Source of the DNA: Promethearchaeota archaeon
GTDB taxonomy: Archaea; Asgardarchaeota; Lokiarchaeia; Sigyniarchaeales; SOKP01
DNA: 64,000 nt
Direction of reading: 5' to 3'
NCBI GenBank assembly: GCA_048940925.1
Contig: JBHLOC010000004.1
Location: 64,001-128,000, forward strand
Positions 14,209 through 55,924 of the stretch are shown in pieces. The notes beneath the pieces were generated by a model. It saw only the letters and a program-made list of their open reading frames with translations, did no database searches and was not told where the DNA came from. A program made the position numbers and the translations under genes. The first letter of the stretch is position 1. Every line of letters begins with the position of its first letter.

Positions 14209-14312
14209 GGGCCTGTAATCTAGTCTGGATTTTTATTTCCAATAAGGGAATAAACAGAAAGGGTACCCGGCTTCGGACTGGGATGTCGCAGGTTCGAATC
14301 CTGCCAGGCCCG
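14209..14312 (+). tRNA. tRNA-Arg(UCG) with a 29-nt D-loop intron (about 20a/21, 14231-14259)
   Basis: acceptor GGGCCTG/CAGGCCC-G; anticodon loop CTTCGGA; T arm GCAGG-TTCGAAT-CCTGC; intron hairpin TTTATTTCC/GGGAATAAA. Confidence 0.9.
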
Positions 14313-24897: not shown

Positions 24898-27800
24898 TTA
24901 TTTTAAATTCTTATAGCGCTTCATAAACAGAATTATTGAAACTACAAAAACGCTTATTAAGATATAAAAGTTATACCCTGGAATACCTTCTGGCGCTCCT
25001 TTTGAAGGTTGTCCCACTAATTTTACTAGAATTGTATTTTCTGCTTCAATATTACCTACCAAATCAATAGAATAATACGTGATAAGATAATAAGCAGGTT
25101 CATAGCTAGATAAGTCAAAGGGATCACTATAATCTATCCAAGCAGAATCATTTATTTTATATCTAATTAAAGAAATCCCTGATCCAAATCCATCATCAGC
25201 TTCTATTGTAAAAAGTGTTGATTTATTTACGTTAATTGTTTCGCTATGAGGTATAAAAGATATTAGCGAAATTGGTTTAGTAGTATCCTTAAAAATATTT
25301 CTTTCTGCATATCCTTTAAATCCAAGAGAATCATTAGCATAGAATCTTATTGTAACTGGTCCATCTACTTTACCATCCCATTCCTCTTGATTGATTTTTC
25401 CTGTTAATCCATTGAAAGTAATGTTTGTTATACCGTTGTCTAATGTATACCATGTCTTGTTTAGATTCAATTCTGTAATTGACAGATTAAAAGTAGGTGG
25501 TACGCTCCCAAAAAATTCACTGATTTCTGGTGAAATAATAGTAATTATAGGGATACTAGTGTCTTTATTAACTATAACCTCTGAAGAATTTTCTTTCCCA
25601 TATGTATTATTTGCGTAAAATTCAATAGTAACAGGTCCATCTGTCCTTTTACTCCACTCTGTTTGGTTGATTGGTCCTGCTAACTCTTTAAATGTAATAT
25701 TTGTGATGCCATTATCTAGTGTATACCATGTTGTATTAATGTATAACCCCTCTATAGATAAGTCAAAATTAGGAGGTGCATTACTGAATAAAGCATTATC
25801 ATAGGGGAGATTAATAGATATCTTAGGAGGATTAATATCAACTGTGAAATATGTTATGATTGAATCATGTATATTTCCTATTGAATCATTCCCGAAAACT
25901 TGAAGTGAATGGATTCCATCTTGAGGTAACGGAATGGTAACATTTCCTAAAATTGTCTTATTAGCTTGCCCGTCCAATGAATATCCCATCCAATCTAAAG
26001 CAGTTAAATTTTTAAAATTAAGTAATAACCCTTCGATTAAATTATCTCCAATATTATATCTAGGATCCCATGAATAACCAATCGCATCAATATAAGAATA
26101 AGAATTGCTTTCACCGTCGGTTGTACCAAAATAGATAGTATCCATTGCGATTGGATTTCCATATAAACCATATCCCTTTCCACTTATATAAATTCCATCT
26201 AGCCATAAATACCATTTTCCAGCTGTGCAATTCCATTCAATCATTAGATGATACCATTGATTGCTTTTGTAAGTCATTATATTTTGCCAACCTGAGTTAT
26301 TATAATATCGAATCCACCCAGTAGAATCAAAGTAAAGATACACCGCGTCGTTTATAGTTAGATCCGTGTCATAAATAAAACACTTAGTCCTAGTTGTATT
26401 ATCTGCTTTCCTTATATAATATTCAATTGTTCCTGTATCTTTATCAACAAATGTTTGGGTAATTTCCATCTTTAAGGAATCAGAAGTGTCATGAAGTTCA
26501 ATTATTTTATTATGACCATCAAGCTCAGAAATTATTTTAGCCGTTCCCCCTGTTTCTAATACACTCCACCCTGTTGGAAAACTCCCACTTATATCATTTT
26601 CGAAACCATAGGTTGCAGGATAATAACCGTTCATCGGTCCAGTATAAGTCTTATTTTCTGGTGTGACAATATAAATTGAAGGAGTGTATATTTTGATTTC
26701 ATCGATAATCAAGTTCTTTGTCTCATCAAACAATCCACTAAATTCAAATTGATCAATAGTCATATCTTCATCAAGCTTTAACCCAACTGTTCTAGTAGTA
26801 AAATCCATATTTCCTATTTCTGAAATTTTAAAACATTTTTGCTCTATACCTGCGTATCTTAGATTAAAATCTATTTCATTTGAAGAAGTCGTGTTAAATA
26901 TAATTTCTATACTGTCTCCTGTTTTTAAATCAAAATTATAACTATTTGGACTTCTTAAAGTTAAGACCTCTGATTCATTTGTTTGACAATATAATATTCC
27001 TCCTCCTTGGTAATGCTTACTAAGAAAGTGATTTATCGTGGGTTGATTACTGGATGCTTCTGAAGAACTAAACTCTATAGAGTTTGAATGAGTTTTAAGC
27101 AGATAATAATAAAAGGGGCGACTTAGATTTATTGTAGTCCAATCAGTTCCTATAACCACTGAACTTGCTAAAGAATCTACTTCAGATGGTTGATAATCCC
27201 ACGTGATAAATGCTTCGTTAAAATTAGTTGTTGTATAAGAATCTACAATTGAGGGAAAAATACCATCATTTACATAACATCGCAAGTTAGAATTTTGTGT
27301 ATAATTCGCATATAAATAAGGAAATTCCTTCTTAATAAAACTATACTCTTCTCCCTTTGGTTCCAAATAACTATAGACCTTACCTTGTTCTTCACCAAGC
27401 ATCCACCAATTACTATACCAATCATCCCAAAATATACTCATTGGATTGGCATCTTGAGAGCTAAGAGAAAAAGATATTCCAGTATAATCCCAAGAAGATG
27501 TGTATTTATAAACTATTCCATTACCGCCAAGCATCCACCAATCGAATCCATCCCAAAAAATATCTCTTGGATTGAAATTTTGAACACCTATATAATACGA
27601 AACTCCAGTATACATCCAATGATCATAATAATCTGTATATTGATAAACCCTCTTATTTTCACTTCCTAACATCCACCAATGAGTTCCATCCCAACATATA
27701 CTTTCTGGGTTTCCATCTTCGTAAATTTCAAAAGAAATATCATATACCTCCCAGTCGGAAGAAAATCTGGTAATTGCAGGAGTGGGTGAATTATTATATC

Positions 27801-29034
27801 CAATAACATAATACAAACCAACTTCATGAAAAAAAAAATCTATTGGCTCTTCAACAATAGGGGAAAGATTGATTTGTTCTCCTGTAAATTCCCATGAAGA
27901 AGAATATTTATATGCGTCCCAATGATTACTTTGGTAATCATATCCAAGTATCCAACGATATCCATATGTATCCTCCGCATCCCAAGTAAAATCAATTGCT
28001 AAATCAAATAAAGGGTAAAACTCAGATGAAGTTCCTGTATAAACCCAATTAAAATCATACTTATAGACCATAATATTACCAATTCCAGCCATCCACCAAT
28101 TAATCCCATCCCAAAAGATGGTTTGTGCGTAATCATCTTGCGAAGTGAGATCATGAGATATTCCAGTATATGCCCAATTAACATCGAACATATATACATA
28201 TGATGTAGCCTCATCAAGTACCCACCAATAATATCCGTCCCAAAAAATATCTTTTGGGAGTAAACCTATACTTTCAAAGTCAGTAATAAAATCTCCAATA
28301 TAATACCAAGAAGAATCATAAAGATGAGCCCTAAGCTTTTCAGCACCAACCATCCACCAATTAGTTCCATCCCAAAATATACTTGTAGGATAATAATCCT
28401 CAGAACCAACATCATAAGAAATTCCCGTATAACTCCACGAAGCATCATACTTATAAACAATATGATTATTTCCTACCATCCACCAATTAGTTCCGTCCCA
28501 CACTATGCTTCTTGGATATGCATCCTGAGAACTAAGATTGTAACAAATTCCAGTATTAAGCCAAGAAGAAGTATACTTTTGTACTATACAATAGTAACTA
28601 TTCATCACCCACCAGTTAATTCCATCCCAATAAATATCAAAGGGGTAGGTCCAATGAGAGTCTATAAACCAAGATTCTCCTGAATAAGTCCATTCCGATT
28701 CATTAGTCACTCTACACTGGTAAAGTGATCCGTACCACTCATAAGGATCTGCTGAACGTGTATAGGCATCGTCGCTTGGAACATAAGATAAGGTCATTGT
28801 TCTCTTTGGTACACCATAAAGATCCCAAAAATTCGACGTATCGTTAAAATCTTCTTGATATATAAGACTTTTTGAACTCTCACTTAATTTAGATATATCA
28901 TTATTAAGATTTGTAGACGATTCGTTATTGTTATTATCAATGTAAGGGTGTAAATTAATATAGATTGTTGAAGATAAAGTTAAAACAAATGTTATAACTA
29001 TTAAAACAGCAATATCTTTTATTTTGGATTTCAT
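24898..29034 (-). CDS. large cell-surface glycoprotein (Trp-rich propeller repeats, lectin-like and Ig-like domains, IPGY-TM-basic anchor)
   Basis: signal peptide; about 10 WDGxxWW repeats; duplicated TWYTLDNGITNITF Ig-like repeats; many N-x-S/T sequons; C-terminal IPGY plus TM plus KRYKNLK. Confidence 0.88.
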   Translation of the reverse strand: MKSKIKDIAVLIVITFVLTLSSTIYINLHPYIDNNNNESSTNLNNDISKLSESSKSLIYQEDFNDTSNFWDLYGVPKRTMTLSYVPSDDAYTRSADPYEWYGSLYQCRVTNESEWTYSGESWFIDSHWTYPFDIYWDGINWWVMNSYYCIVQKYTSSWLNTGICYNLSSQDAYPRSIVWDGTNWWMVGNNHIVYKYDASWSYTGISYDVGSEDYYPTSIFWDGTNWWMVGAEKLRAHLYDSSWYYIGDFITDFESIGLLPKDIFWDGYYWWVLDEATSYVYMFDVNWAYTGISHDLTSQDDYAQTIFWDGINWWMAGIGNIMVYKYDFNWVYTGTSSEFYPLFDLAIDFTWDAEDTYGYRWILGYDYQSNHWDAYKYSSSWEFTGEQINLSPIVEEPIDFFFHEVGLYYVIGYNNSPTPAITRFSSDWEVYDISFEIYEDGNPESICWDGTHWWMLGSENKRVYQYTDYYDHWMYTGVSYYIGVQNFNPRDIFWDGFDWWMLGGNGIVYKYTSSWDYTGISFSLSSQDANPMSIFWDDWYSNWWMLGEEQGKVYSYLEPKGEEYSFIKKEFPYLYANYTQNSNLRCYVNDGIFPSIVDSYTTTNFNEAFITWDYQPSEVDSLASSVVIGTDWTTINLSRPFYYYLLKTHSNSIEFSSSEASSNQPTINHFLSKHYQGGGILYCQTNESEVLTLRSPNSYNFDLKTGDSIEIIFNTTSSNEIDFNLRYAGIEQKCFKISEIGNMDFTTRTVGLKLDEDMTIDQFEFSGLFDETKNLIIDEIKIYTPSIYIVTPENKTYTGPMNGYYPATYGFENDISGSFPTGWSVLETGGTAKIISELDGHNKIIELHDTSDSLKMEITQTFVDKDTGTIEYYIRKADNTTRTKCFIYDTDLTINDAVYLYFDSTGWIRYYNNSGWQNIMTYKSNQWYHLMIEWNCTAGKWYLWLDGIYISGKGYGLYGNPIAMDTIYFGTTDGESNSYSYIDAIGYSWDPRYNIGDNLIEGLLLNFKNLTALDWMGYSLDGQANKTILGNVTIPLPQDGIHSLQVFGNDSIGNIHDSIITYFTVDINPPKISINLPYDNALFSNAPPNFDLSIEGLYINTTWYTLDNGITNITFKELAGPINQTEWSKRTDGPVTIEFYANNTYGKENSSEVIVNKDTSIPIITIISPEISEFFGSVPPTFNLSITELNLNKTWYTLDNGITNITFNGLTGKINQEEWDGKVDGPVTIRFYANDSLGFKGYAERNIFKDTTKPISLISFIPHSETINVNKSTLFTIEADDGFGSGISLIRYKINDSAWIDYSDPFDLSSYEPAYYLITYYSIDLVGNIEAENTILVKLVGQPSKGAPEGIPGYNFYILISVFVVSIILFMKRYKNLK

Positions 29035-29760: not shown

Positions 29761-30101
29761 TACACCTACAAAAATAATGCAATCTTGAAAATTTCTACAT
29801 CCTCTGTTATTTTATTACCTTGCATGTGTCAAGTAAAAATAGAAAAAGAATTAAATAAGTTCTACACTATTAAAAGGTCTAATTACTCGCCTGAATAAAG
29901 AGAGTTTTTAAAGAAATTGTGCATCAAACATGTTTATGATATAATTAATGAATCTCTTATTAAAGAAATTGAAAATATGTCGACTTATGATGATAATTAT
30001 ACAGGATTAAGACAAATAAGGAATATCCAATTAACTTTTTATTGGGAAAAAAATAGTAGAGGGTTTAAAACAGAGATGCAAATAAATAAATAAATTAAGT
30101 T

Positions 30102-30264
30102 TGGCAAGGGTGGGATTTGAACCCACGATACCCAGATAACTGAGGTCGGTTTGAATGAAACCTTACACTTCAGTCTGGTGCGTTCGGGGGCATTAATCCG
30201 TAATTAATCCCTTCCCGGGTTTCGCGGACCTTCATAAAGCGAAGAACCACTACGCCACCTTGCC
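30102..30264 (-). tRNA. tRNA-Phe(GAA) with three introns: 15/16 (30220-30249), 22/23 (30183-30211), 37/38 (30138-30167)
   Basis: acceptor GGCAAGG/CCTTGCC-A; splicing gives a 74-nt cloverleaf with D arm GCGT-AGCCCGGGA-ACGC, anticodon arm CCAGA-CTGAAGA-TCTGG, T arm GTGGG-TTCAAAT-CCCAC; each intron has a BHB-like motif. Confidence 0.87.
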
Positions 30265-30322
30265 TATGATGTTTTATCTTAATTCATAATTAAAAATTAA
30301 ATTTAATGCCGAATAAGATAGA

Positions 30323-30359
30323 AATTAAAGTATAGAATCTCATAAAAATATTTTTAGTC
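30323..30359. repeat. 37-bp direct repeat flanking the HAD gene, copy 1
   Basis: 34/37 identical to 31086-31122. Confidence 0.8.
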
Positions 30360-30360
30360 G

Positions 30361-31041
30361 TTAAATCAGATCCATTATCTCCATGAAAGATTCAATTTTT
30401 CGACCATTCCAATTTACTTCAACTAGATGATAGGGATCCATCTCATTTGGATCACGGATCATAACAGCATCCATACCTAACTGAGAAGCTCCCGCGAGTT
30501 CATTACTATCACCATCTCCAATATAGAGGCATTCGTTTGGTTTGACTCCCAAATGTTCACATGCTAAATTGTATATTTGAGCGTCGGGTTTTTTCAAACC
30601 TACTGAAGCGGAGAATATAGTAGCATCAAAGAGATGAGAGAAGTCTGTATTTTTCCATAAGAGAGGTACCTCGGCAGAGCAATTAGTTATTAATCCAATC
30701 TTATATCCTAATCCTCTTAGAGCTTTTAAAATATCTACAGCTCCATTTTTGGGAGTTAAAGCTTTGCGAGTGTTTTCCAGTCTGATTTGTTCACATTTCC
30801 TAATGTTTTCATCACTTACAGAAACTTTAAGTATATTACAAATATACCTTATACTTTGTTCGGTGGTTTTAAAAATCCCAATTGCGCGCTTATAAGTTGT
30901 ATCACGCCAAAATTTTGAAAAATCCTCATTAGGTAAATCGAGAGCTAAAGCCATATCTGTTAATAATCTGTTATATCCTTGAACTGAATAATTATCGACA
31001 AGAGTACCGAATAGATCGAAAATAATAGCCTTATATTTCAT
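30361..31041 (-). CDS. HAD-superfamily hydrolase
   Basis: IIFDLFGTL, GLITN, KKPD, YIGDGDSNEL. Confidence 0.92.
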   Translation of the reverse strand: MKYKAIIFDLFGTLVDNYSVQGYNRLLTDMALALDLPNEDFSKFWRDTTYKRAIGIFKTTEQSIRYICNILKVSVSDENIRKCEQIRLENTRKALTPKNGAVDILKALRGLGYKIGLITNCSAEVPLLWKNTDFSHLFDATIFSASVGLKKPDAQIYNLACEHLGVKPNECLYIGDGDSNELAGASQLGMDAVMIRDPNEMDPYHLVEVNWNGRKIESFMEIMDLI

Positions 31042-31085: not shown

Positions 31086-31122
31086 AATTAAAGTATAGAA
31101 TTTCATAAAAATCTTATTAGTC
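31086..31122. repeat. 37-bp direct repeat flanking the HAD gene, copy 2
   Basis: 34/37 identical to 30323-30359. Confidence 0.8.
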
Positions 31123-31205: not shown

Positions 31206-32672
31206 TTAACTAGCTCGTTTTCTTTTACGCAATAGGAAAATTGCTGTTGTCGCTACTGCTATTCCAGCTATAGTTGACGTGATTGCTATGATGATTAGTA
31301 CGAGAGGAACTTTATCAGCAGGTTTCCCATCATTATCCGGTGGTGTTGGAGTTCGATTGTCTACCTTCGCCGTTAGAAACCAATTTGCTCCGTTGCCTGC
31401 ATCGAACACAATGACGTCTCTATAGCCGTTGATTGCTGGTGCCGAGGAATCAACTAGTTTTTCAGTACTTCCGTTAAAAGCTCTAATGTCGGACCAGTTA
31501 GTAGGAATCTTGAATATCATCGAATTATAATCGTCAATTCTTGCATCATAACAAGTAATATTTTCGTTAATAGAGGCGTTCCATATAAATAAGTCTTTTT
31601 CTAGAATGGTATAGGTCGAATCTGCCTTTAAACCCGTTTTAGTATAATTGATTTGAACCTTAGTGATATTACAGGAAAGGTTCCACCAATCATAATCGGC
31701 AGAAATTATGAATTCTAATTCACCCTTACTATTCGTATACTCTTGATTTGAAGTCATCCAATATCCAGAGTTGTTCACATTGTCGCTTACAGCAGTGTTG
31801 TTTATTTTAAGCCCTATATCTGAAGGTTTAGGAGTAAGTTTTAAAGGAGAAAAATCACATTTGAGGGTTAAATCAACGGTATCCGGAGGTACACCAGATG
31901 TTATTAAAACCCAATCCTCCGGACCAGGATCCTCTTTCCAGCAATCAAGATCATCACTATTATCTCCAGCACCAATATAATCTGAATCAAAATACCAATA
32001 AGTATTGTCATTTGTATCTTTTAAACTAATAAAGAATGTATTATTTTCTGTATCTGATATATTTAATAATTCATGTAGGTTTGTAAACGTATACCAACCG
32101 GGATCGAAGTTATTGAAATTATAACCTGTTTTTATGGCATGATATAATCCATTTGGCTCATATTGATTGTTAGCCCATTTAGATTTAAAAATTTCAAGAT
32201 TTAAAGAACCACTAGTTGTATCATCTTCATTATATAATCGAAAAGAGGCATTTTCTAAATATCCCGTTCCTTTAATTGTAAAGGATACAGCCTTTCGTTT
32301 TCCATATAATGAAATTGCATCTATTCGAAAGTCATCTTCATAAATAATAGTTTTATTTGGAACATAGATATCATTGATCATAAACTCGGTAAAGCTGGAG
32401 TTGAATGTGGGTTCAGAAGGGCATAGAACGGTTAACACATTCGAATTACTTAAATTGGAAAATTCAATAGTTGATATATTCAGGTAGGTTTGATGCAGCG
32501 AAACATTTATCTGTTCTCCTTCTCCAGCAGTCTGAAGCACACTGTTCAAAAATTTGAATACATTATCTTTATTCTGTCGATTATCGATAATACTGTATTT
32601 GCTAATGGGCGATACCGCGAAAAAAATCCCTATAATTAATATAATTATTTTCATTTTGCGTTTATTTTTCAT
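31206..32672 (-). CDS. secreted surface glycoprotein with C-terminal TM anchor
   Basis: signal peptide, many sequons, Pro/Thr linker, TM plus RKRKRAS. Confidence 0.85.
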   Translation of the reverse strand: MKNKRKMKIIILIIGIFFAVSPISKYSIIDNRQNKDNVFKFLNSVLQTAGEGEQINVSLHQTYLNISTIEFSNLSNSNVLTVLCPSEPTFNSSFTEFMINDIYVPNKTIIYEDDFRIDAISLYGKRKAVSFTIKGTGYLENASFRLYNEDDTTSGSLNLEIFKSKWANNQYEPNGLYHAIKTGYNFNNFDPGWYTFTNLHELLNISDTENNTFFISLKDTNDNTYWYFDSDYIGAGDNSDDLDCWKEDPGPEDWVLITSGVPPDTVDLTLKCDFSPLKLTPKPSDIGLKINNTAVSDNVNNSGYWMTSNQEYTNSKGELEFIISADYDWWNLSCNITKVQINYTKTGLKADSTYTILEKDLFIWNASINENITCYDARIDDYNSMIFKIPTNWSDIRAFNGSTEKLVDSSAPAINGYRDVIVFDAGNGANWFLTAKVDNRTPTPPDNDGKPADKVPLVLIIIAITSTIAGIAVATTAIFLLRKRKRAS

Positions 32673-52633: not shown

Positions 52634-52755
52634 GAAAACAAGCTTTCAATGATAAAATAATTTCTGAGGAGTAAATTCTTAATAATCTTAGAAAATTTCA
52701 ATAAATTAGAAATAAAAAAAAATCTTCACCAAAAATATCGTATATATTGAAAGGT

Positions 52756-54837
52756 ATGAATTTTTTCTTTGAATTAAAAGCCAGTAGAATAGGTTATTCA
52801 AGAATAGGGCGGATATCATTATCGAAAGATCGGAAGCTTTATATAAATACTCCGAATTTAATGATTCCTATAAAGAATTCGTTAATGAAACAGTTTAGTT
52901 TTATACAAGAATTCGAAAGTCATAAACTCTTTATCATTTCAAAAGAGATATTTTTAAGAATTGGATTTCTTCGTGAAAAGTTTAAAGACACAGGATTTAT
53001 TTTTTCTTATAATGGGACTTTTGAGAAATTTGAAGATATTTTAATACGAAATTTAGATATCTTCACTGAAGACAATATCATTTCAATATTACCATTTAAT
53101 GTTCCTACAACTTCTATTAATAAAGATTTTGCAGAAGTAGAAATAACTGCATATCTTAAAAAGGCTAAAAAGATCTTAAAACAATATCCAAATCTTAATT
53201 TTGGTATAACCATTAGAATTTTTGATTATACTGAATTGTTTGATCTCTATATTCCGATTATAAAAAAGAATGAAAATATTAAAATTCTAAACCTATCTGA
53301 CATTTTTGATAATTTCAACAATTTTAGAGGTATTGCAAAAATTATATCTGAAGTTAAAGCTGAATTGGATAATAATCTTGTTGTAATGGCTTCAGGTAGG
53401 ATAATTCCTAAATTATATCCTATTTTAGTATATTTAGGAATTGATTTAATTGATAGCTCCTTTTTATTATATTTATCAGCTGAAAATTTCTACGACACAA
53501 TAGAGTATCTTCTGCCAATATATAAAGTTAGGTATTTTCCCTGTGCCTGTGTGGCATGTAAAGGAAAATTGAAGAATCTTTTTGACATTAAACATTCTTC
53601 TGAAAAAATAGATTTATTATGTCTTCATAATCTCATATCAGCAACTAATTACATTAATAAAATTAGCCAATATTTAAACTATGAAGATTACAGAACATTT
53701 GTTGAAAAATCTACCTTTGATGATACCAATTTAATCTCAATTCTAAAAATTTTAGATAAAGACTATTTTCATTTAATGAGATATGAAACACCGATAACTA
53801 TTAAAAACAGAACTATTAGATGCCTTGGACCAACTTCATATAACCGCCCAGATTTTCGAGAATACAGAGAAAGAACTTTAACTAATTTTGGACCTGAACC
53901 ATGGACTACTTTAATTATCTTACTTCCATGCTCAGCTAAAAAACCTTATTCTGAATCTAAATCTCATAAGTTATTTTATAAAAAAATAAGAAAATTTTCA
54001 GAATTTCCAAATTTCCAAGAATTTATTCTAACTTCTCCTTTAGGGGTGATTCCAAGACAACTTGAAAACATTTATCCTGTTAATTCGTATGATATTTCAG
54101 TTACAGGTGATTGGAATAATGAAGAAATAAATATCACAGCTAATATGCTTATAAAAATATTAGAAAAATACAATAATGATATTCCGATAATTTGTCATCT
54201 TAAAGATGAATATTATGAGATTGTTAAAAGAGTTAAATCTAAATTAGCTCATAAATTCTTTTTTACCACAGTTTCAGATAAATTAACCTCAAAAGAATCT
54301 CTTCAATCATTAGAAGATTTAATTAATGAATATAAAGATATCTTTAAATCCAAACAGCAATTAAAGAAAGGAAATTGCTTAACTAAATCGTGGATTAGAA
54401 AATTTAATAAAATTTTAGATTATCAATTTGGTATTGGTTCAGGAATGAGAGTGATTTCACAAGAATTAACACAAATCAAACTTAAGTCTAATGGAAATGT
54501 TAATTTAATAGATAAAAAAAGCAAGGTATTATTGGGTATTTTCAGATCATCTACGGGTCAAATTGATTTAACACTTAAGGGAATTAATCGATTAGTAAAA
54601 ACACCTTATTCTATAGATTCAAATACAATTGTATTTGATGCAAATTTTATCAGAGGTAATACACTATTTCGAAAGGGCATAATAGCTTTCAGTCGAAATT
54701 TAATTCCAAATAATTTTACATATGTATTAAATAAAGATAAGAACGATATAATTGGAACTGGAAATTTATTAGTAGGGTCGAATTTTATAAAAAATTCTAA
54801 GACTGGGAGAGTAGTAAAAATCAATGATAAAAAATAG
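52756..54837 (+). CDS. arcS: archaeosine synthase subunit (TGT-like, DUF5591 and PUA-like domains)
   Basis: SRIGRI...TPN, LVYLGIDLID, LLPCSAKKPYSESKSH, TSPLGVIPR.LE..YP...YDI.VTGDW, DYQFG. Confidence 0.88.
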   Translation: MNFFFELKASRIGYSRIGRISLSKDRKLYINTPNLMIPIKNSLMKQFSFIQEFESHKLFIISKEIFLRIGFLREKFKDTGFIFSYNGTFEKFEDILIRNLDIFTEDNIISILPFNVPTTSINKDFAEVEITAYLKKAKKILKQYPNLNFGITIRIFDYTELFDLYIPIIKKNENIKILNLSDIFDNFNNFRGIAKIISEVKAELDNNLVVMASGRIIPKLYPILVYLGIDLIDSSFLLYLSAENFYDTIEYLLPIYKVRYFPCACVACKGKLKNLFDIKHSSEKIDLLCLHNLISATNYINKISQYLNYEDYRTFVEKSTFDDTNLISILKILDKDYFHLMRYETPITIKNRTIRCLGPTSYNRPDFREYRERTLTNFGPEPWTTLIILLPCSAKKPYSESKSHKLFYKKIRKFSEFPNFQEFILTSPLGVIPRQLENIYPVNSYDISVTGDWNNEEINITANMLIKILEKYNNDIPIICHLKDEYYEIVKRVKSKLAHKFFFTTVSDKLTSKESLQSLEDLINEYKDIFKSKQQLKKGNCLTKSWIRKFNKILDYQFGIGSGMRVISQELTQIKLKSNGNVNLIDKKSKVLLGIFRSSTGQIDLTLKGINRLVKTPYSIDSNTIVFDANFIRGNTLFRKGIIAFSRNLIPNNFTYVLNKDKNDIIGTGNLLVGSNFIKNSKTGRVVKINDKK

Positions 54838-55924
54838 GAATTTAAAAGAATATAATGAAATTGTTGCAGAAAAAGTTAAATTTTTCAGAGAAAAAGCTCT
54901 AAAAAATAAAAAAAAATATGAGAAAGAGCAACTGAGTCAACCTGTTGCATTTTGGATAAAAAAGGACAGATTAATTAACGAAATAGGAAAGCAATTTACA
55001 ATTATACTAAGAACCAAAGGATGTAGTTGGTCACTAAGTAAAACTGGAGGGTGTACGATGTGTGGATATATAAATGATGCAAATATTGATGACATTGAGC
55101 AATCTCAAGTTATAAATCAATTCATTTATGCAATTAACTCTAAAATGAGCGAAATAGAAGAAGATCATGATAAATTTATTTTAAAAATATTTAATTCGGG
55201 AAGCTTTTTCGATGAAAAAGAGATCTCTGAAGTAGTTAGGAGAACTATTTATGAAAAAATCGCAGGAATCAAAAGCATTAAAGAAGTTGTCTTAGAAAGT
55301 AGATTAGAATATATTACTACAGAAATCCTTTCTGAGATAAGAGAATTTCTAAAAGATAAATATGTTGAGATTGCAATTGGACTTGAAACTGTGAATGATT
55401 ATATTAGAAATAATTATATTAATAAGGGATTTCTCTATGAAAATTTTAAAGAAGTATGTAATGAATGTAAAGGGTTTGATATAGGTATAAAAGCTTATTT
55501 ATTATTTAAACCACCATTTCTTAATGAACAAGCTGCTATAGATGATTGTGTAAATTCAATTAGAAATCTTATTGAGCAAGATATTAATACGATTTCGATT
55601 AATCCCTTAAACATTCAAAAAGGTACTCTAGTGGAATATCTATGGTATCAAAATAGATATAGACCTCCGTGGTATTATTCCTTATTTAAATGTTTAAAAA
55701 AATCACTTACCCAAAAAGATTTAGAAAAAGTCCGAATACTATCTGATCCGAGTGGAGCTGGAACGAGGAGAGGGATACATAATTGTTTGAAAAAGGAATG
55801 TGAGAATTCTGCAAAGCAAATGCTTAGTAATTTTGTTCTCTCTCAAAATTTATCTGAGTTGAAACAAAATGGATTTGAGTGTAATTGTAAAAGCAAATAT
55901 CAATTAGAGAAAAATTATTGTTGA
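54824..55924 (+). CDS. raSEA: archaeosine biosynthesis radical SAM enzyme
   Basis: ILRTKGCSW....GCTMCGY, KIFNSGSF, AYLLFKPPFL, YRPPW, RGIHNC; overlaps arcS. Confidence 0.92.
   Translation: MIKNRNLKEYNEIVAEKVKFFREKALKNKKKYEKEQLSQPVAFWIKKDRLINEIGKQFTIILRTKGCSWSLSKTGGCTMCGYINDANIDDIEQSQVINQFIYAINSKMSEIEEDHDKFILKIFNSGSFFDEKEISEVVRRTIYEKIAGIKSIKEVVLESRLEYITTEILSEIREFLKDKYVEIAIGLETVNDYIRNNYINKGFLYENFKEVCNECKGFDIGIKAYLLFKPPFLNEQAAIDDCVNSIRNLIEQDINTISINPLNIQKGTLVEYLWYQNRYRPPWYYSLFKCLKKSLTQKDLEKVRILSDPSGAGTRRGIHNCLKKECENSAKQMLSNFVLSQNLSELKQNGFECNCKSKYQLEKNYC

What the first reader, a model, noticed from the sequence alone, without database searches (positions are those of the whole stretch)
30102..30264. 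tRNA-Phe with three introns and an 8-nt micro-exon
Seen: the gene folds into a 74-nt cloverleaf only after removing three inserts, each with BHB-like geometry: 15/16 (GCGU AG|U ... GCGA AA|C), 22/23 (CGGG AA|G ... CCCG AA|C) and 37/38 (CUGA AG|U ... UCAG UU|A). Exon 2 is only CCCGGGAA. Known: multi-intron tRNAs are mainly described from Thermoproteales. Inference: the BHB helices compete with the D stem, so splicing must precede D-arm folding and may be ordered. Position 15/16 is immediately 3' of G15, the archaeosine site, and arcS/raSEA are in this window, so splicing may gate that modification.
Basis: partly seen in the sequence, partly recalled or inferred. Interest (0 to 1): 0.72.

Follow-up and report, generated by a model that had tools for sequence, protein, structure and literature searches.

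The report
Three-intron phenylalanine tRNA gene, Asgard archaeon
This is a real phenylalanine tRNA gene, the only one found in an Asgard archaeon's genome, cut into four pieces by three short introns. It is a clear but ordinary example of the heavily interrupted tRNA genes reported for Asgard archaea since 2024.

Summary
On the minus strand (30264 to 30102), removing inserts of 30, 29 and 30 nt after positions 15, 22 and 37 gives a perfect 74-nt tRNA-Phe(GAA).

A species of the same genus has an intronless copy whose D-arm matches the predicted splice product exactly, so the junctions and the 8-nt exon CCCGGGAA are fixed without using the splicing motif. No other tRNA-Phe was found in this genome, which is rated 100% complete.

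- **Motifs:** the 37/38 and 22/23 introns have full 4-bp bulge-helix-bulge (BHB) centres. The 15/16 intron is relaxed (3 of 4 pairs).
- **Enzymes:** the genome encodes a two-subunit splicing endonuclease with the loop lysine linked to broad specificity, and the ligase RtcB.
- **Genus context:** 42 tRNA-Phe genes in the genus carry 0 to 4 introns at 11 positions, so this gene is typical there.
- **Prior work:** multi-intron Asgard tRNAs are published (2024 paper, 2026 preprint), and this scan has reported similar cases on other DNA.
- **Splicing order:** it has only modelling support. Folding energies favour removing 15/16 before 22/23.
- **Archaeosine idea:** no evidence. arcS and raSEA are in the window but about 22.5 kb away.
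- **RNA data:** none were available.

The parts
30102..30264 (-). Whole tRNA-Phe(GAA) gene, 163 nt from G1 to discriminator A73. No CCA is encoded.
   Evidence: ARAGORN in intron mode gives the same ends but miscalls it tRNA-Glu.
30250..30264 (-). Exon 1, positions 1-15: acceptor 5' strand, U8, G9, D-stem 5' strand GCGU, A14, G15.
30220..30249 (-). Intron 1 at 15/16, 30 nt. Relaxed BHB: 5' bulge A14 G15|U; an 8-position inner hairpin helix with one U.U mismatch; an invariant GCG pairing with C11 G12 U13; 3' bulge AA|C16.
   Evidence: Eight orthologs keep the design: 89.6% of cells are paired against at most 52% when slid, and 3 pairs change on both sides.
30212..30219 (-). Exon 2, the 8-nt micro-exon CCCGGGAA, positions 16-22 including 17a. 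It holds G18, G19 and G20. Every nucleotide is used by one of the two flanking motifs.
   Evidence: It is identical to the uninterrupted stretch in the intronless orthologs L006 and L048.
30183..30211 (-). Intron 2 at 22/23, 29 nt. HBh' class: central helix CGGG/CCCG (4/4), bulges AA|G and AA|C, inner helix GG/CC plus a 6-bp AUUAAU hairpin. The outer helix is only 1 bp.
   Evidence: (pair probabilities 0.82-0.92).
30168..30182 (-). Exon 3, positions 23-37: D-stem 3' strand CGC, A26, anticodon stem 5' strand, C32 U33 G34 A35 A36 G37.
30138..30167 (-). Intron 3 at the canonical 37/38 site, 30 nt. Central helix CUGA/UCAG (4/4), bulges AG|U and UU|A, and the 5-bp anticodon stem as outer helix. The inner helix has 1 adjacent pair and then a 5-bp hairpin.
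   Evidence: (pair probabilities 0.57-0.98).
30102..30137 (-). Exon 4, positions 38-73: A38, anticodon stem 3' strand, variable loop GUAUC, T arm, acceptor 3' strand, A73.

Best explanation
This is the functional tRNA-Phe(GAA) gene of an AT-rich Asgard archaeon (NCBI phylum Promethearchaeota, the Loki-type lineage), and apparently its only one. The gene is transcribed as a precursor of about 163 nt. [quoted passage not shown] The genome's two-subunit (alpha-beta)2 splicing endonuclease EndA cuts after the second base of each 3-nt bulge, and RtcB joins the four exons into a 74-nt tRNA. The introns are lineage-specific passengers. Within this genus the same tRNA gene carries 0 to 4 introns at 11 positions. 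Shown here: the sequence anatomy, the junctions, the motifs, the enzyme genes and the comparative pattern. Inferred: transcription, cleavage and ligation.
For: 1. The joined exons form a perfect cloverleaf with GAA, G18, G19, G20 and A73.
2. Intronless orthologs in G001, G050 and G051 read straight across the predicted junctions. G010 has only the 22/23 intron, and G002 and G012 share the 15/16 plus 22/23 pair.
3. BHB geometry sits at junctions that were set without using the motif. Slid controls rarely match it. Across the genus the central helix has 4/4 pairs in 67 introns, 3/4 in 37 and 2/4 in 1.
4. The hairpin of the 15/16 intron is kept through changes on both sides, and its GCG is invariant.
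5. No second tRNA-Phe was found by ARAGORN, the Rfam tRNA model, a 12-mer scan or BLAST of the mature sequence, in a genome rated 100% complete.
6. EndA alpha has the Tyr/His/Lys triad and the lysine that aligns with Aeropyrum pernix K44. A second paralog has no His at the aligned catalytic position (my reading of the sequence; not aligned formally). RtcB is present.
7. A contig from another sample spans the gene with no insertions or deletions.
Against: There is no RNA evidence, because no RNA run holds this DNA. The 15/16 motif has only 3 of 4 central pairs plus a G.A mismatch. It is absent from the unconstrained minimum-energy fold (pair probability about 0) and needs enzyme capture or an alternative fold. 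Its slid-control rank is modest (15 of 440). The genome is a 90-contig draft with 8.4% contamination, so a second tRNA-Phe hidden by other introns or left unassembled cannot be fully excluded. The class-level taxonomy rests on one named relative.
Confidence: 0.93

Rival explanations
1. Splicing follows a required order, with 15/16 removed before 22/23, and it controls when G15 is converted to archaeosine.
For: With the 15/16 motif forced, the ensemble cost is 4.8 kcal/mol in the full precursor but 9.0 kcal/mol once intron 2 is removed. The costs for introns 2 and 3 stay at 3.6-3.8. G15 is the base whose 3' bond is cut. Ordered removal is documented in Cyanidioschyzon merolae (PMC3728597). arcS and raSEA are present.
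Against: All three motifs can form at once, so no order is forced. The energy model penalises even the canonical motif by 3.8 kcal/mol. There is no link between the tRNA gene and arcS-raSEA, which lie about 22.5 kb away, or ArcTGT, which is on another contig. Only 8 of 42 tRNA-Phe genes in the genus have the 15/16 intron, so any coupling is not conserved.
Confidence: 0.12
2. A two-intron parse. The D arm is built from exon 1 plus the start of 'intron 1' (GCG UAGUGGUUCUU CGC), followed by one long insert of about 60 nt and then the 37/38 intron.
For: The sequence allows a 3-bp D stem with a GG in the loop, and CGC recurs at both candidate junctions.
Against: The intronless orthologs have the D arm GCGU-AGCCCGGGA-ACGC, not this one. 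CCCGGGAA is invariant while both flanks diverge. No BHB fits the long insert. This parse would also lose A21, G20 and the U13-A22 pair.
Confidence: 0.02
3. A decaying or unspliced pseudogene, an assembly artefact, or ARAGORN's own call of tRNA-Glu(UUC) with a 70-nt intron.
For: Standard detectors do not call it as tRNA-Phe. ARAGORN without intron mode and Rfam miss it. ARAGORN in intron mode gives tRNA-Glu.
Against: It is the only tRNA-Phe candidate in the genome, its exons are flawless, and motifs sit at all three junctions. G002 and G012 have the same architecture. An independent contig spans the gene. The Glu parse takes its anticodon from inside intron 1, whose sequence varies between species.
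Confidence: 0.03

Closest known systems
[quoted passage not shown] 2024, PMC11291895; Goswami et al. 2026 preprint, 10.64898/2026.10.13.758758)
   Same: Asgard host. Several short introns per tRNA gene, mostly non-canonical. D-arm introns that standard annotators miss. Junctions at BHB or relaxed BHB motifs. Repeated gain and loss between relatives. A two-paralog EndA. The preprint's own worked example is a tRNA-Phe(GAA) with three inserts, one of them a missed D-arm insert.
   Different: Those studies centre on Freyarchaeia/Jordiarchaeia and Atabeyarchaeia. The word Lokiarch does not occur in the preprint's main text. This host appears to be of the Loki-type lineage, with 29.6% GC and 4.8 Mb. 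Here the junctions were fixed against intronless orthologs from the same genus, and the pattern was mapped across 42 genes in that genus.
Multi-intron tRNA genes of Thermoproteales (Sugahara 2007, 2008; Marck and Grosjean 2003; reviewed in PMC4090602)
   Same: Several BHB or relaxed BHB introns per gene at non-canonical sites. An (alpha-beta)2 EndA carrying the Crenarchaea-specific loop (my recollection for the intron counts).
   Different: A different phylum and thermophilic, GC-rich hosts. There, related intron sequences recur across different tRNA genes. Here the three introns have no other copy in the genome.
Aeropyrum pernix (alpha-beta)2 EndA (PDB 3P1Z; PMC3241643, PMC5829648)
   Same: It is the best structural match of the alpha subunit (E 4e-33). 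The catalytic Tyr/His/Lys and the loop lysine K44 all align. PMC5829648 reports that Asgard EndAs are (alpha-beta)2 with this L1 loop.
   Different: The activity of the Asgard enzyme has not been measured. Heterotetramer formation is inferred from the presence of two paralogs only.
Multi-intron nuclear tRNAs of Cyanidioschyzon merolae (PMC3728597)
   Same: Two and three BHB introns per gene, including a tRNA-Phe(GAA) with a D-stem intron plus a 37/38 intron. Removal order follows motif stability.
   Different: A eukaryotic host and enzyme, with RT-PCR evidence that is missing here.

Membership tests
Archaeal EndA-spliced (BHB) tRNA introns | Removing the insert restores a canonical cloverleaf tRNA. 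| tested here: met
   ARAGORN folds the 74-nt product as tRNA-Phe(GAA) with all stems intact. Intronless orthologs are identical across the D-arm junctions.
Archaeal EndA-spliced (BHB) tRNA introns | Two 3-nt bulges separated by a 4-bp helix, with the cut sites in the bulges and a flanking helix of at least 2 bp. | tested here: met
   The 37/38 intron has 4/4 central pairs and a 5-bp outer helix. The 22/23 intron has 4/4 central pairs and a 2-bp inner helix.
Archaeal EndA-spliced (BHB) tRNA introns | The same strict motif for the 15/16 intron. | tested here: inconclusive
   Only 3 of 4 central pairs plus a G.A mismatch, which is the relaxed class. It is not in the minimum-energy fold. Its architecture is nevertheless conserved in 8 orthologs.
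Archaeal EndA-spliced (BHB) tRNA introns | The host encodes a splicing endonuclease able to cut relaxed motifs, plus an RNA ligase. | tested here: met
   Two EndA paralogs. The alpha subunit has the catalytic triad and the K44-equivalent lysine. RtcB scores 556 bits. Enzyme activity itself was not tested.
Archaeal EndA-spliced (BHB) tRNA introns | Spliced RNA or excised intron observed. | not testable with these tools
   No RNA run holds this DNA.
Heavily interrupted Asgard tRNA genes | The host is an Asgard archaeon. | tested here: inconclusive
   The only named relative is a 'Promethearchaeota archaeon' MAG, at 35% protein identity. The EndA type fits Asgard or TACK. No marker-gene phylogeny was made.
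Heavily interrupted Asgard tRNA genes | Two or more inserts of at least 10 nt relative to compact relatives, including D-arm inserts missed by annotators. | tested here: met
   Three inserts relative to the G001 ortholog. The gene is missed by ARAGORN and Rfam and miscalled in ARAGORN's intron mode.

The most novel reading that the evidence does not exclude
In this Loki-type genus the tRNA-Phe gene turns over its introns very fast: 0 to 4 introns at 11 sites, with different sets even among genes that have identical exons. Which introns can coexist may be set by whether their BHB motifs overlap. 15/16 never occurs with 19/20, 19/20 never with 22/23, 30/31 never with 37/38, and 58/59 never with 59/60. 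The 15/16 and 22/23 motifs abut exactly, which leaves the 8-nt exon. Where motifs compete with the D stem, as here, a preferred order of removal (15/16 first) would follow.
Probability: 0.3. Interest if true: 0.5.

Novelty: new member of a known kind. Interest (0 to 1): 0.33.

Why it matters
The gene is needed to annotate this genome correctly. Without it the genome appears to lack tRNA-Phe, and one detector misnames the locus as tRNA-Glu. It adds a case fixed by orthologs, from a Loki-type lineage, to the recently described Asgard phenomenon. The genus-wide series gives a compact natural experiment: one essential gene with 0 to 4 introns at 11 positions, including intronless copies. That series could be used to study how BHB introns are gained and lost, and what substrate rules the Asgard endonuclease follows. 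It does not reveal a new kind of system.

Tried and rejected
- **RNA evidence:** no RNA holder was listed for this DNA, so splicing could not be observed. The single read-laying run only showed DNA contigs.
- **Intron copies elsewhere in the genome:** BLAST of the three introns found only chance matches. The best, 16 nt on C41, lies at the start of a protein gene. There is no sign of a repeated intron family at the sequence level.
- **Second 12-mer hit:** AAGGTGGCGTAG on G000:C85 falls inside a P-loop ATPase gene, so it is chance.
- **Regex search for other GAA anticodon arms:** it gave 335 unspecific hits and was uninformative.
- **Alignment of the 22/23 introns (A2):** too gappy for column-wise covariation counts, so I used per-sequence motif scores instead.
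- **Taxon names from protein clusters:** none were returned.
- **Sugahara 2007 (PMC1852824):** not held, so statements about Thermoproteales intron counts rest on reviews and on my own knowledge.
- **Strict-motif constraints in ViennaRNA:** they cost 3.8 kcal/mol even for the canonical intron, so only differences between precursors were interpreted.
- **Whole-genome tRNA census of G000:** not attempted, because tRNAscan-SE and Infernal are not in the script box.

Full report
**1. What is in the sequence**

The gene lies on the minus strand, from G1 at 30264 to the discriminator A73 at 30102.

| Part | Length | Position |
|---|---|---|
| Exon 1 | 15 nt | 1-15 |
| Intron 1 | 30 nt | after 15 |
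| Exon 2 (CCCGGGAA) | 8 nt | 16-22 |
| Intron 2 | 29 nt | after 22 |
| Exon 3 | 15 nt | 23-37 |
| Intron 3 | 30 nt | after 37 |
| Exon 4 | 36 nt | 38-73 |

- The joined 74-nt product folds in ARAGORN as a flawless tRNA-Phe(GAA). It has a 7-bp acceptor stem, a 4-bp D stem (GCGU/ACGC), the D loop AGCCCGGGA, a 5-bp anticodon stem, a 5-nt variable loop and a standard T arm.
- Standard detectors miss the gene. ARAGORN without intron mode and Rfam report only a tRNA-Gly in the window.
- ARAGORN in intron mode finds exactly these ends but calls the locus tRNA-Glu(UUC) with a 70-nt intron.
- The window has 29.4% GC and the 4.8-Mb, 90-contig genome 29.6%.

**2. The junctions are fixed without using the motif**

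I searched 41 related genomes with the gene and 54 genomes of the genus with the exon-1 word AAGGTGGCGTAG. These searches found the orthologous gene widely.

- G001 has an intronless tRNA-Phe that reads GCGTAGCCCGGGAACGC across both D-arm junctions and CTGAAGATCTGG across the third. G050 and G051 are intronless as well.
- G010 has only the 22/23 intron. G002 has 15/16, 22/23 and 30/31. G012 has 15/16, 22/23 and 37/38, plus a fourth insert at 5/6.
- This rules out the one serious alternative parse, in which the start of intron 1 supplies a different D arm. That D arm occurs in no ortholog. CCCGGGAA is invariant while both of its flanks diverge.

**3. The splicing motifs**

I used the published geometry: 4 exon bases pair with the 4 intron bases that lie upstream of the 3' bulge, and each cut falls after the second base of a 3-nt bulge.

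| Intron | Central pairs | Flanking helices | Class | Slid controls scoring as well |
|---|---|---|---|---|
| 37/38 | 4/4 | 5-bp anticodon stem as outer helix | canonical | 2 of 440 |
| 22/23 | 4/4 (CGGG/CCCG) | inner helix GG/CC plus a 6-bp hairpin | HBh' | 1 of 440 |
| 15/16 | 3/4 (C11-G, G12-C, U13.G, with G10.A unpaired) | an 8-position hairpin helix abuts it | relaxed | 15 of 440 |

- In the unconstrained fold of the 163-nt precursor (-60.1 kcal/mol, z = -3.1), the acceptor and T arms form. The central helices of introns 2 and 3 also form, with pair probabilities of 0.57-0.98. The helix of intron 1 does not form. Its hairpin extends by two pairs, and the D stem forms instead.
- Comparison still supports the intron 1 design. 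In eight orthologs the first intron base varies, the hairpin starts right after it, and GCG is invariant just before the final three bases.
- In that alignment 89.6% of cells pair, against at most 52% when the partner is slid. Three hairpin pairs change on both sides.
- Across the genus, the central helix has 4/4 pairs in 67 introns, 3/4 in 37 and 2/4 in one. At junctions with no positional ambiguity the split is 28 and 20, with none lower. Slid controls reach 4/4 in 6.5% of cases. The orthologs are related, so these counts overstate the independent evidence.

**4. The machinery**

- The genome has two EndA paralogs of about 200 aa, on C58 and C18, each with the N- and C-terminal domains.
- The C58 protein matches the Aeropyrum pernix alpha subunit best (3P1Z, E 4e-33). 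The catalytic Tyr, His and Lys align, and so does the lysine of the Crenarchaea-specific loop (K44 in A. pernix).
- The C18 protein has no His at the position I take to be the catalytic one. I read this from the sequence and did not align it formally. It matches the structural half of the fused enzymes.
- This is the (alpha-beta)2 layout that PMC5829648 reports for Asgard archaea and links to cutting of relaxed motifs.
- RtcB is present.
- Activity and complex formation are inferred, not shown.

**5. Is it the working gene?**

- No other tRNA-Phe turned up with ARAGORN, the Rfam tRNA model, the 12-mer scan or BLAST of the mature sequence. The only other 12-mer hit lies inside an ATPase gene.
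- The genome is rated 100% complete with 8.4% contamination.
- A contig from a different sample spans 30047-30500 with no insertions or deletions, so this is not an assembly artefact.
- No RNA run holds the DNA, so splicing is inferred.

**6. Context in the genus**

| Introns per gene | 0 | 1 | 2 | 3 | 4 |
|---|---|---|---|---|---|
| tRNA-Phe genes (42 in all, from about 40 genomes) | 3 | 3 | 14 | 11 | 11 |

- The introns sit at eleven positions: 5/6, 15/16, 19/20, 22/23, 30/31, 37/38, 47/48, 51/52, 52/53, 58/59 and 59/60.
- Three introns and an 8-nt exon are therefore typical here. Seven-nt exons occur where 51/52 and 58/59 coincide, and G012 has a 5-nt first exon.
- Genes with exons identical to this one differ in their intron sets. 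G064 has 30/31 only. G002 has 15/16, 22/23 and 30/31. G015 has 15/16, 30/31 and 59/60.
- Positions whose motifs would overlap never co-occur: 15/16 with 19/20, 19/20 with 22/23, 30/31 with 37/38, and 58/59 with 59/60.
- The 15/16 and 22/23 motifs abut without overlap. C16 is in the 3' bulge of intron 1, C17a-G20 form the helix of intron 2, and A21-A22 are its 5' bulge. This explains the 8-nt exon.
- The three introns have no other copy in this genome.

**7.

- *Competition with the D stem.* This is real. Intron 1's helix uses C11-U13. Intron 2's 3' bulge uses the bases that pair with G12 and U13 in the predicted fold.
- *Splicing order.* All three motifs can be imposed at once, so no order is forced. 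In the ensemble model the intron 1 motif costs 4.8 kcal/mol in the full precursor and 9.0 kcal/mol after intron 2 is removed. The costs for introns 2 and 3 do not change. This is a testable hint that 15/16 goes first, nothing more. Ordered removal is already documented elsewhere (PMC3728597).
- *Archaeosine gating.* arcS (52747-54837) and raSEA (54824-55924) are in the window, about 22.5 kb from the tRNA gene. The transglycosylase is on another contig. Most genes in the genus lack the 15/16 intron. I found no paper that links archaeosine to an intron. The idea has no support here.

**8. Comparison with what is known, and verdict**

- Heavily interrupted Asgard tRNA genes were reported in 2024 (PMC11291895). 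A 2026 preprint (10.64898/2026.10.13.758758) analysed them further. It found up to five inserts per gene, D-arm inserts missed by the annotator, enrichment at BHB motifs and repeated gains.
- This scan has also reported multi-intron Asgard tRNAs on other DNA, and short BHB inserts in protein genes of this same genome. I did not test those notes.
- The host is of the Loki-type lineage, as far as one named relative shows. The published work does not emphasise that group.
- The finding is a well-supported new member of a known kind, and it is useful for annotation. The genus series of intron states is the part most worth following up.

Noticed in passing
window 14209-14312 (+): A second hidden tRNA, probably tRNA-Arg(UCG), with an insert of about 30 nt in the D arm. 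Rfam scores it below threshold (24.2 bits) and ARAGORN misses it. ARAGORN calls Arg(tcg) after trial deletions, but the exact junction is not resolved.
   Followed up: partly
L002:1470-1659 (G012): This congener's tRNA-Phe has a fourth insert of 28 nt at 5/6 in the acceptor stem, leaving a 5-nt first exon. The central helix is 4/4 and includes leader base -1, so splicing would have to come before 5' end trimming.
   Followed up: partly
Loci L034, L036, L039, L040, L042, L046, L052, L060, L071, L079 (congeners): Ten of the eleven four-intron tRNA-Phe genes in the genus; the eleventh is G012 (L002), listed above. They have 7- or 8-nt exons between 51/52 and 58/59 or 59/60. The 51/52 intron occurs only together with a T-loop intron (14 of 14). 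Its outer helix pairs the micro-exon with positions 41-45, which hints at dependent introns.
   Followed up: partly
Genus-wide table: Intron positions whose BHB motifs would overlap never co-occur. The canonical 37/38 site is rare (3 of 42 genes), while 30/31 is the commonest (25 of 42). The genomes are related, so this is a pattern and not a test.
   Followed up: no
L013, L041, L078 (G004): One MAG holds three different tRNA-Phe genes with different intron sets. This probably reflects a mix of strains or contamination (rated 9%).
   Followed up: no
window 30323-30359 and 31086-31122: A 37-nt direct repeat (92% identical) flanks the HAD-hydrolase gene (30361-31041) next to the tRNA. Contigs from four runs branch at its ends.
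   Followed up: partly
window 52747-55924 (+): An arcS-like gene (DUF5591 plus a TGT C-terminal part, below the NCBIfam cut-off) overlaps a clear raSEA gene (TIGR01210, 338 bits), forming an archaeosine synthase pair.
   Followed up: yes
G000 genome: ARAGORN in intron mode finds only 34 tRNAs, 22 of them with an intron and some implausible, such as Tyr(ata) and Stop(tta). It finds no Phe, Asn, Asp, His, Ile or Trp, so many tRNA genes in this genome are probably hidden by non-canonical introns.
   Followed up: no
window 24898-29034 (-) and 31206-32672 (-): Two large ORFs near the tRNA, of 1378 aa and 488 aa, have no Pfam match. The 488-aa protein has a 35%-identical relative in another Promethearchaeota MAG.
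   Followed up: no
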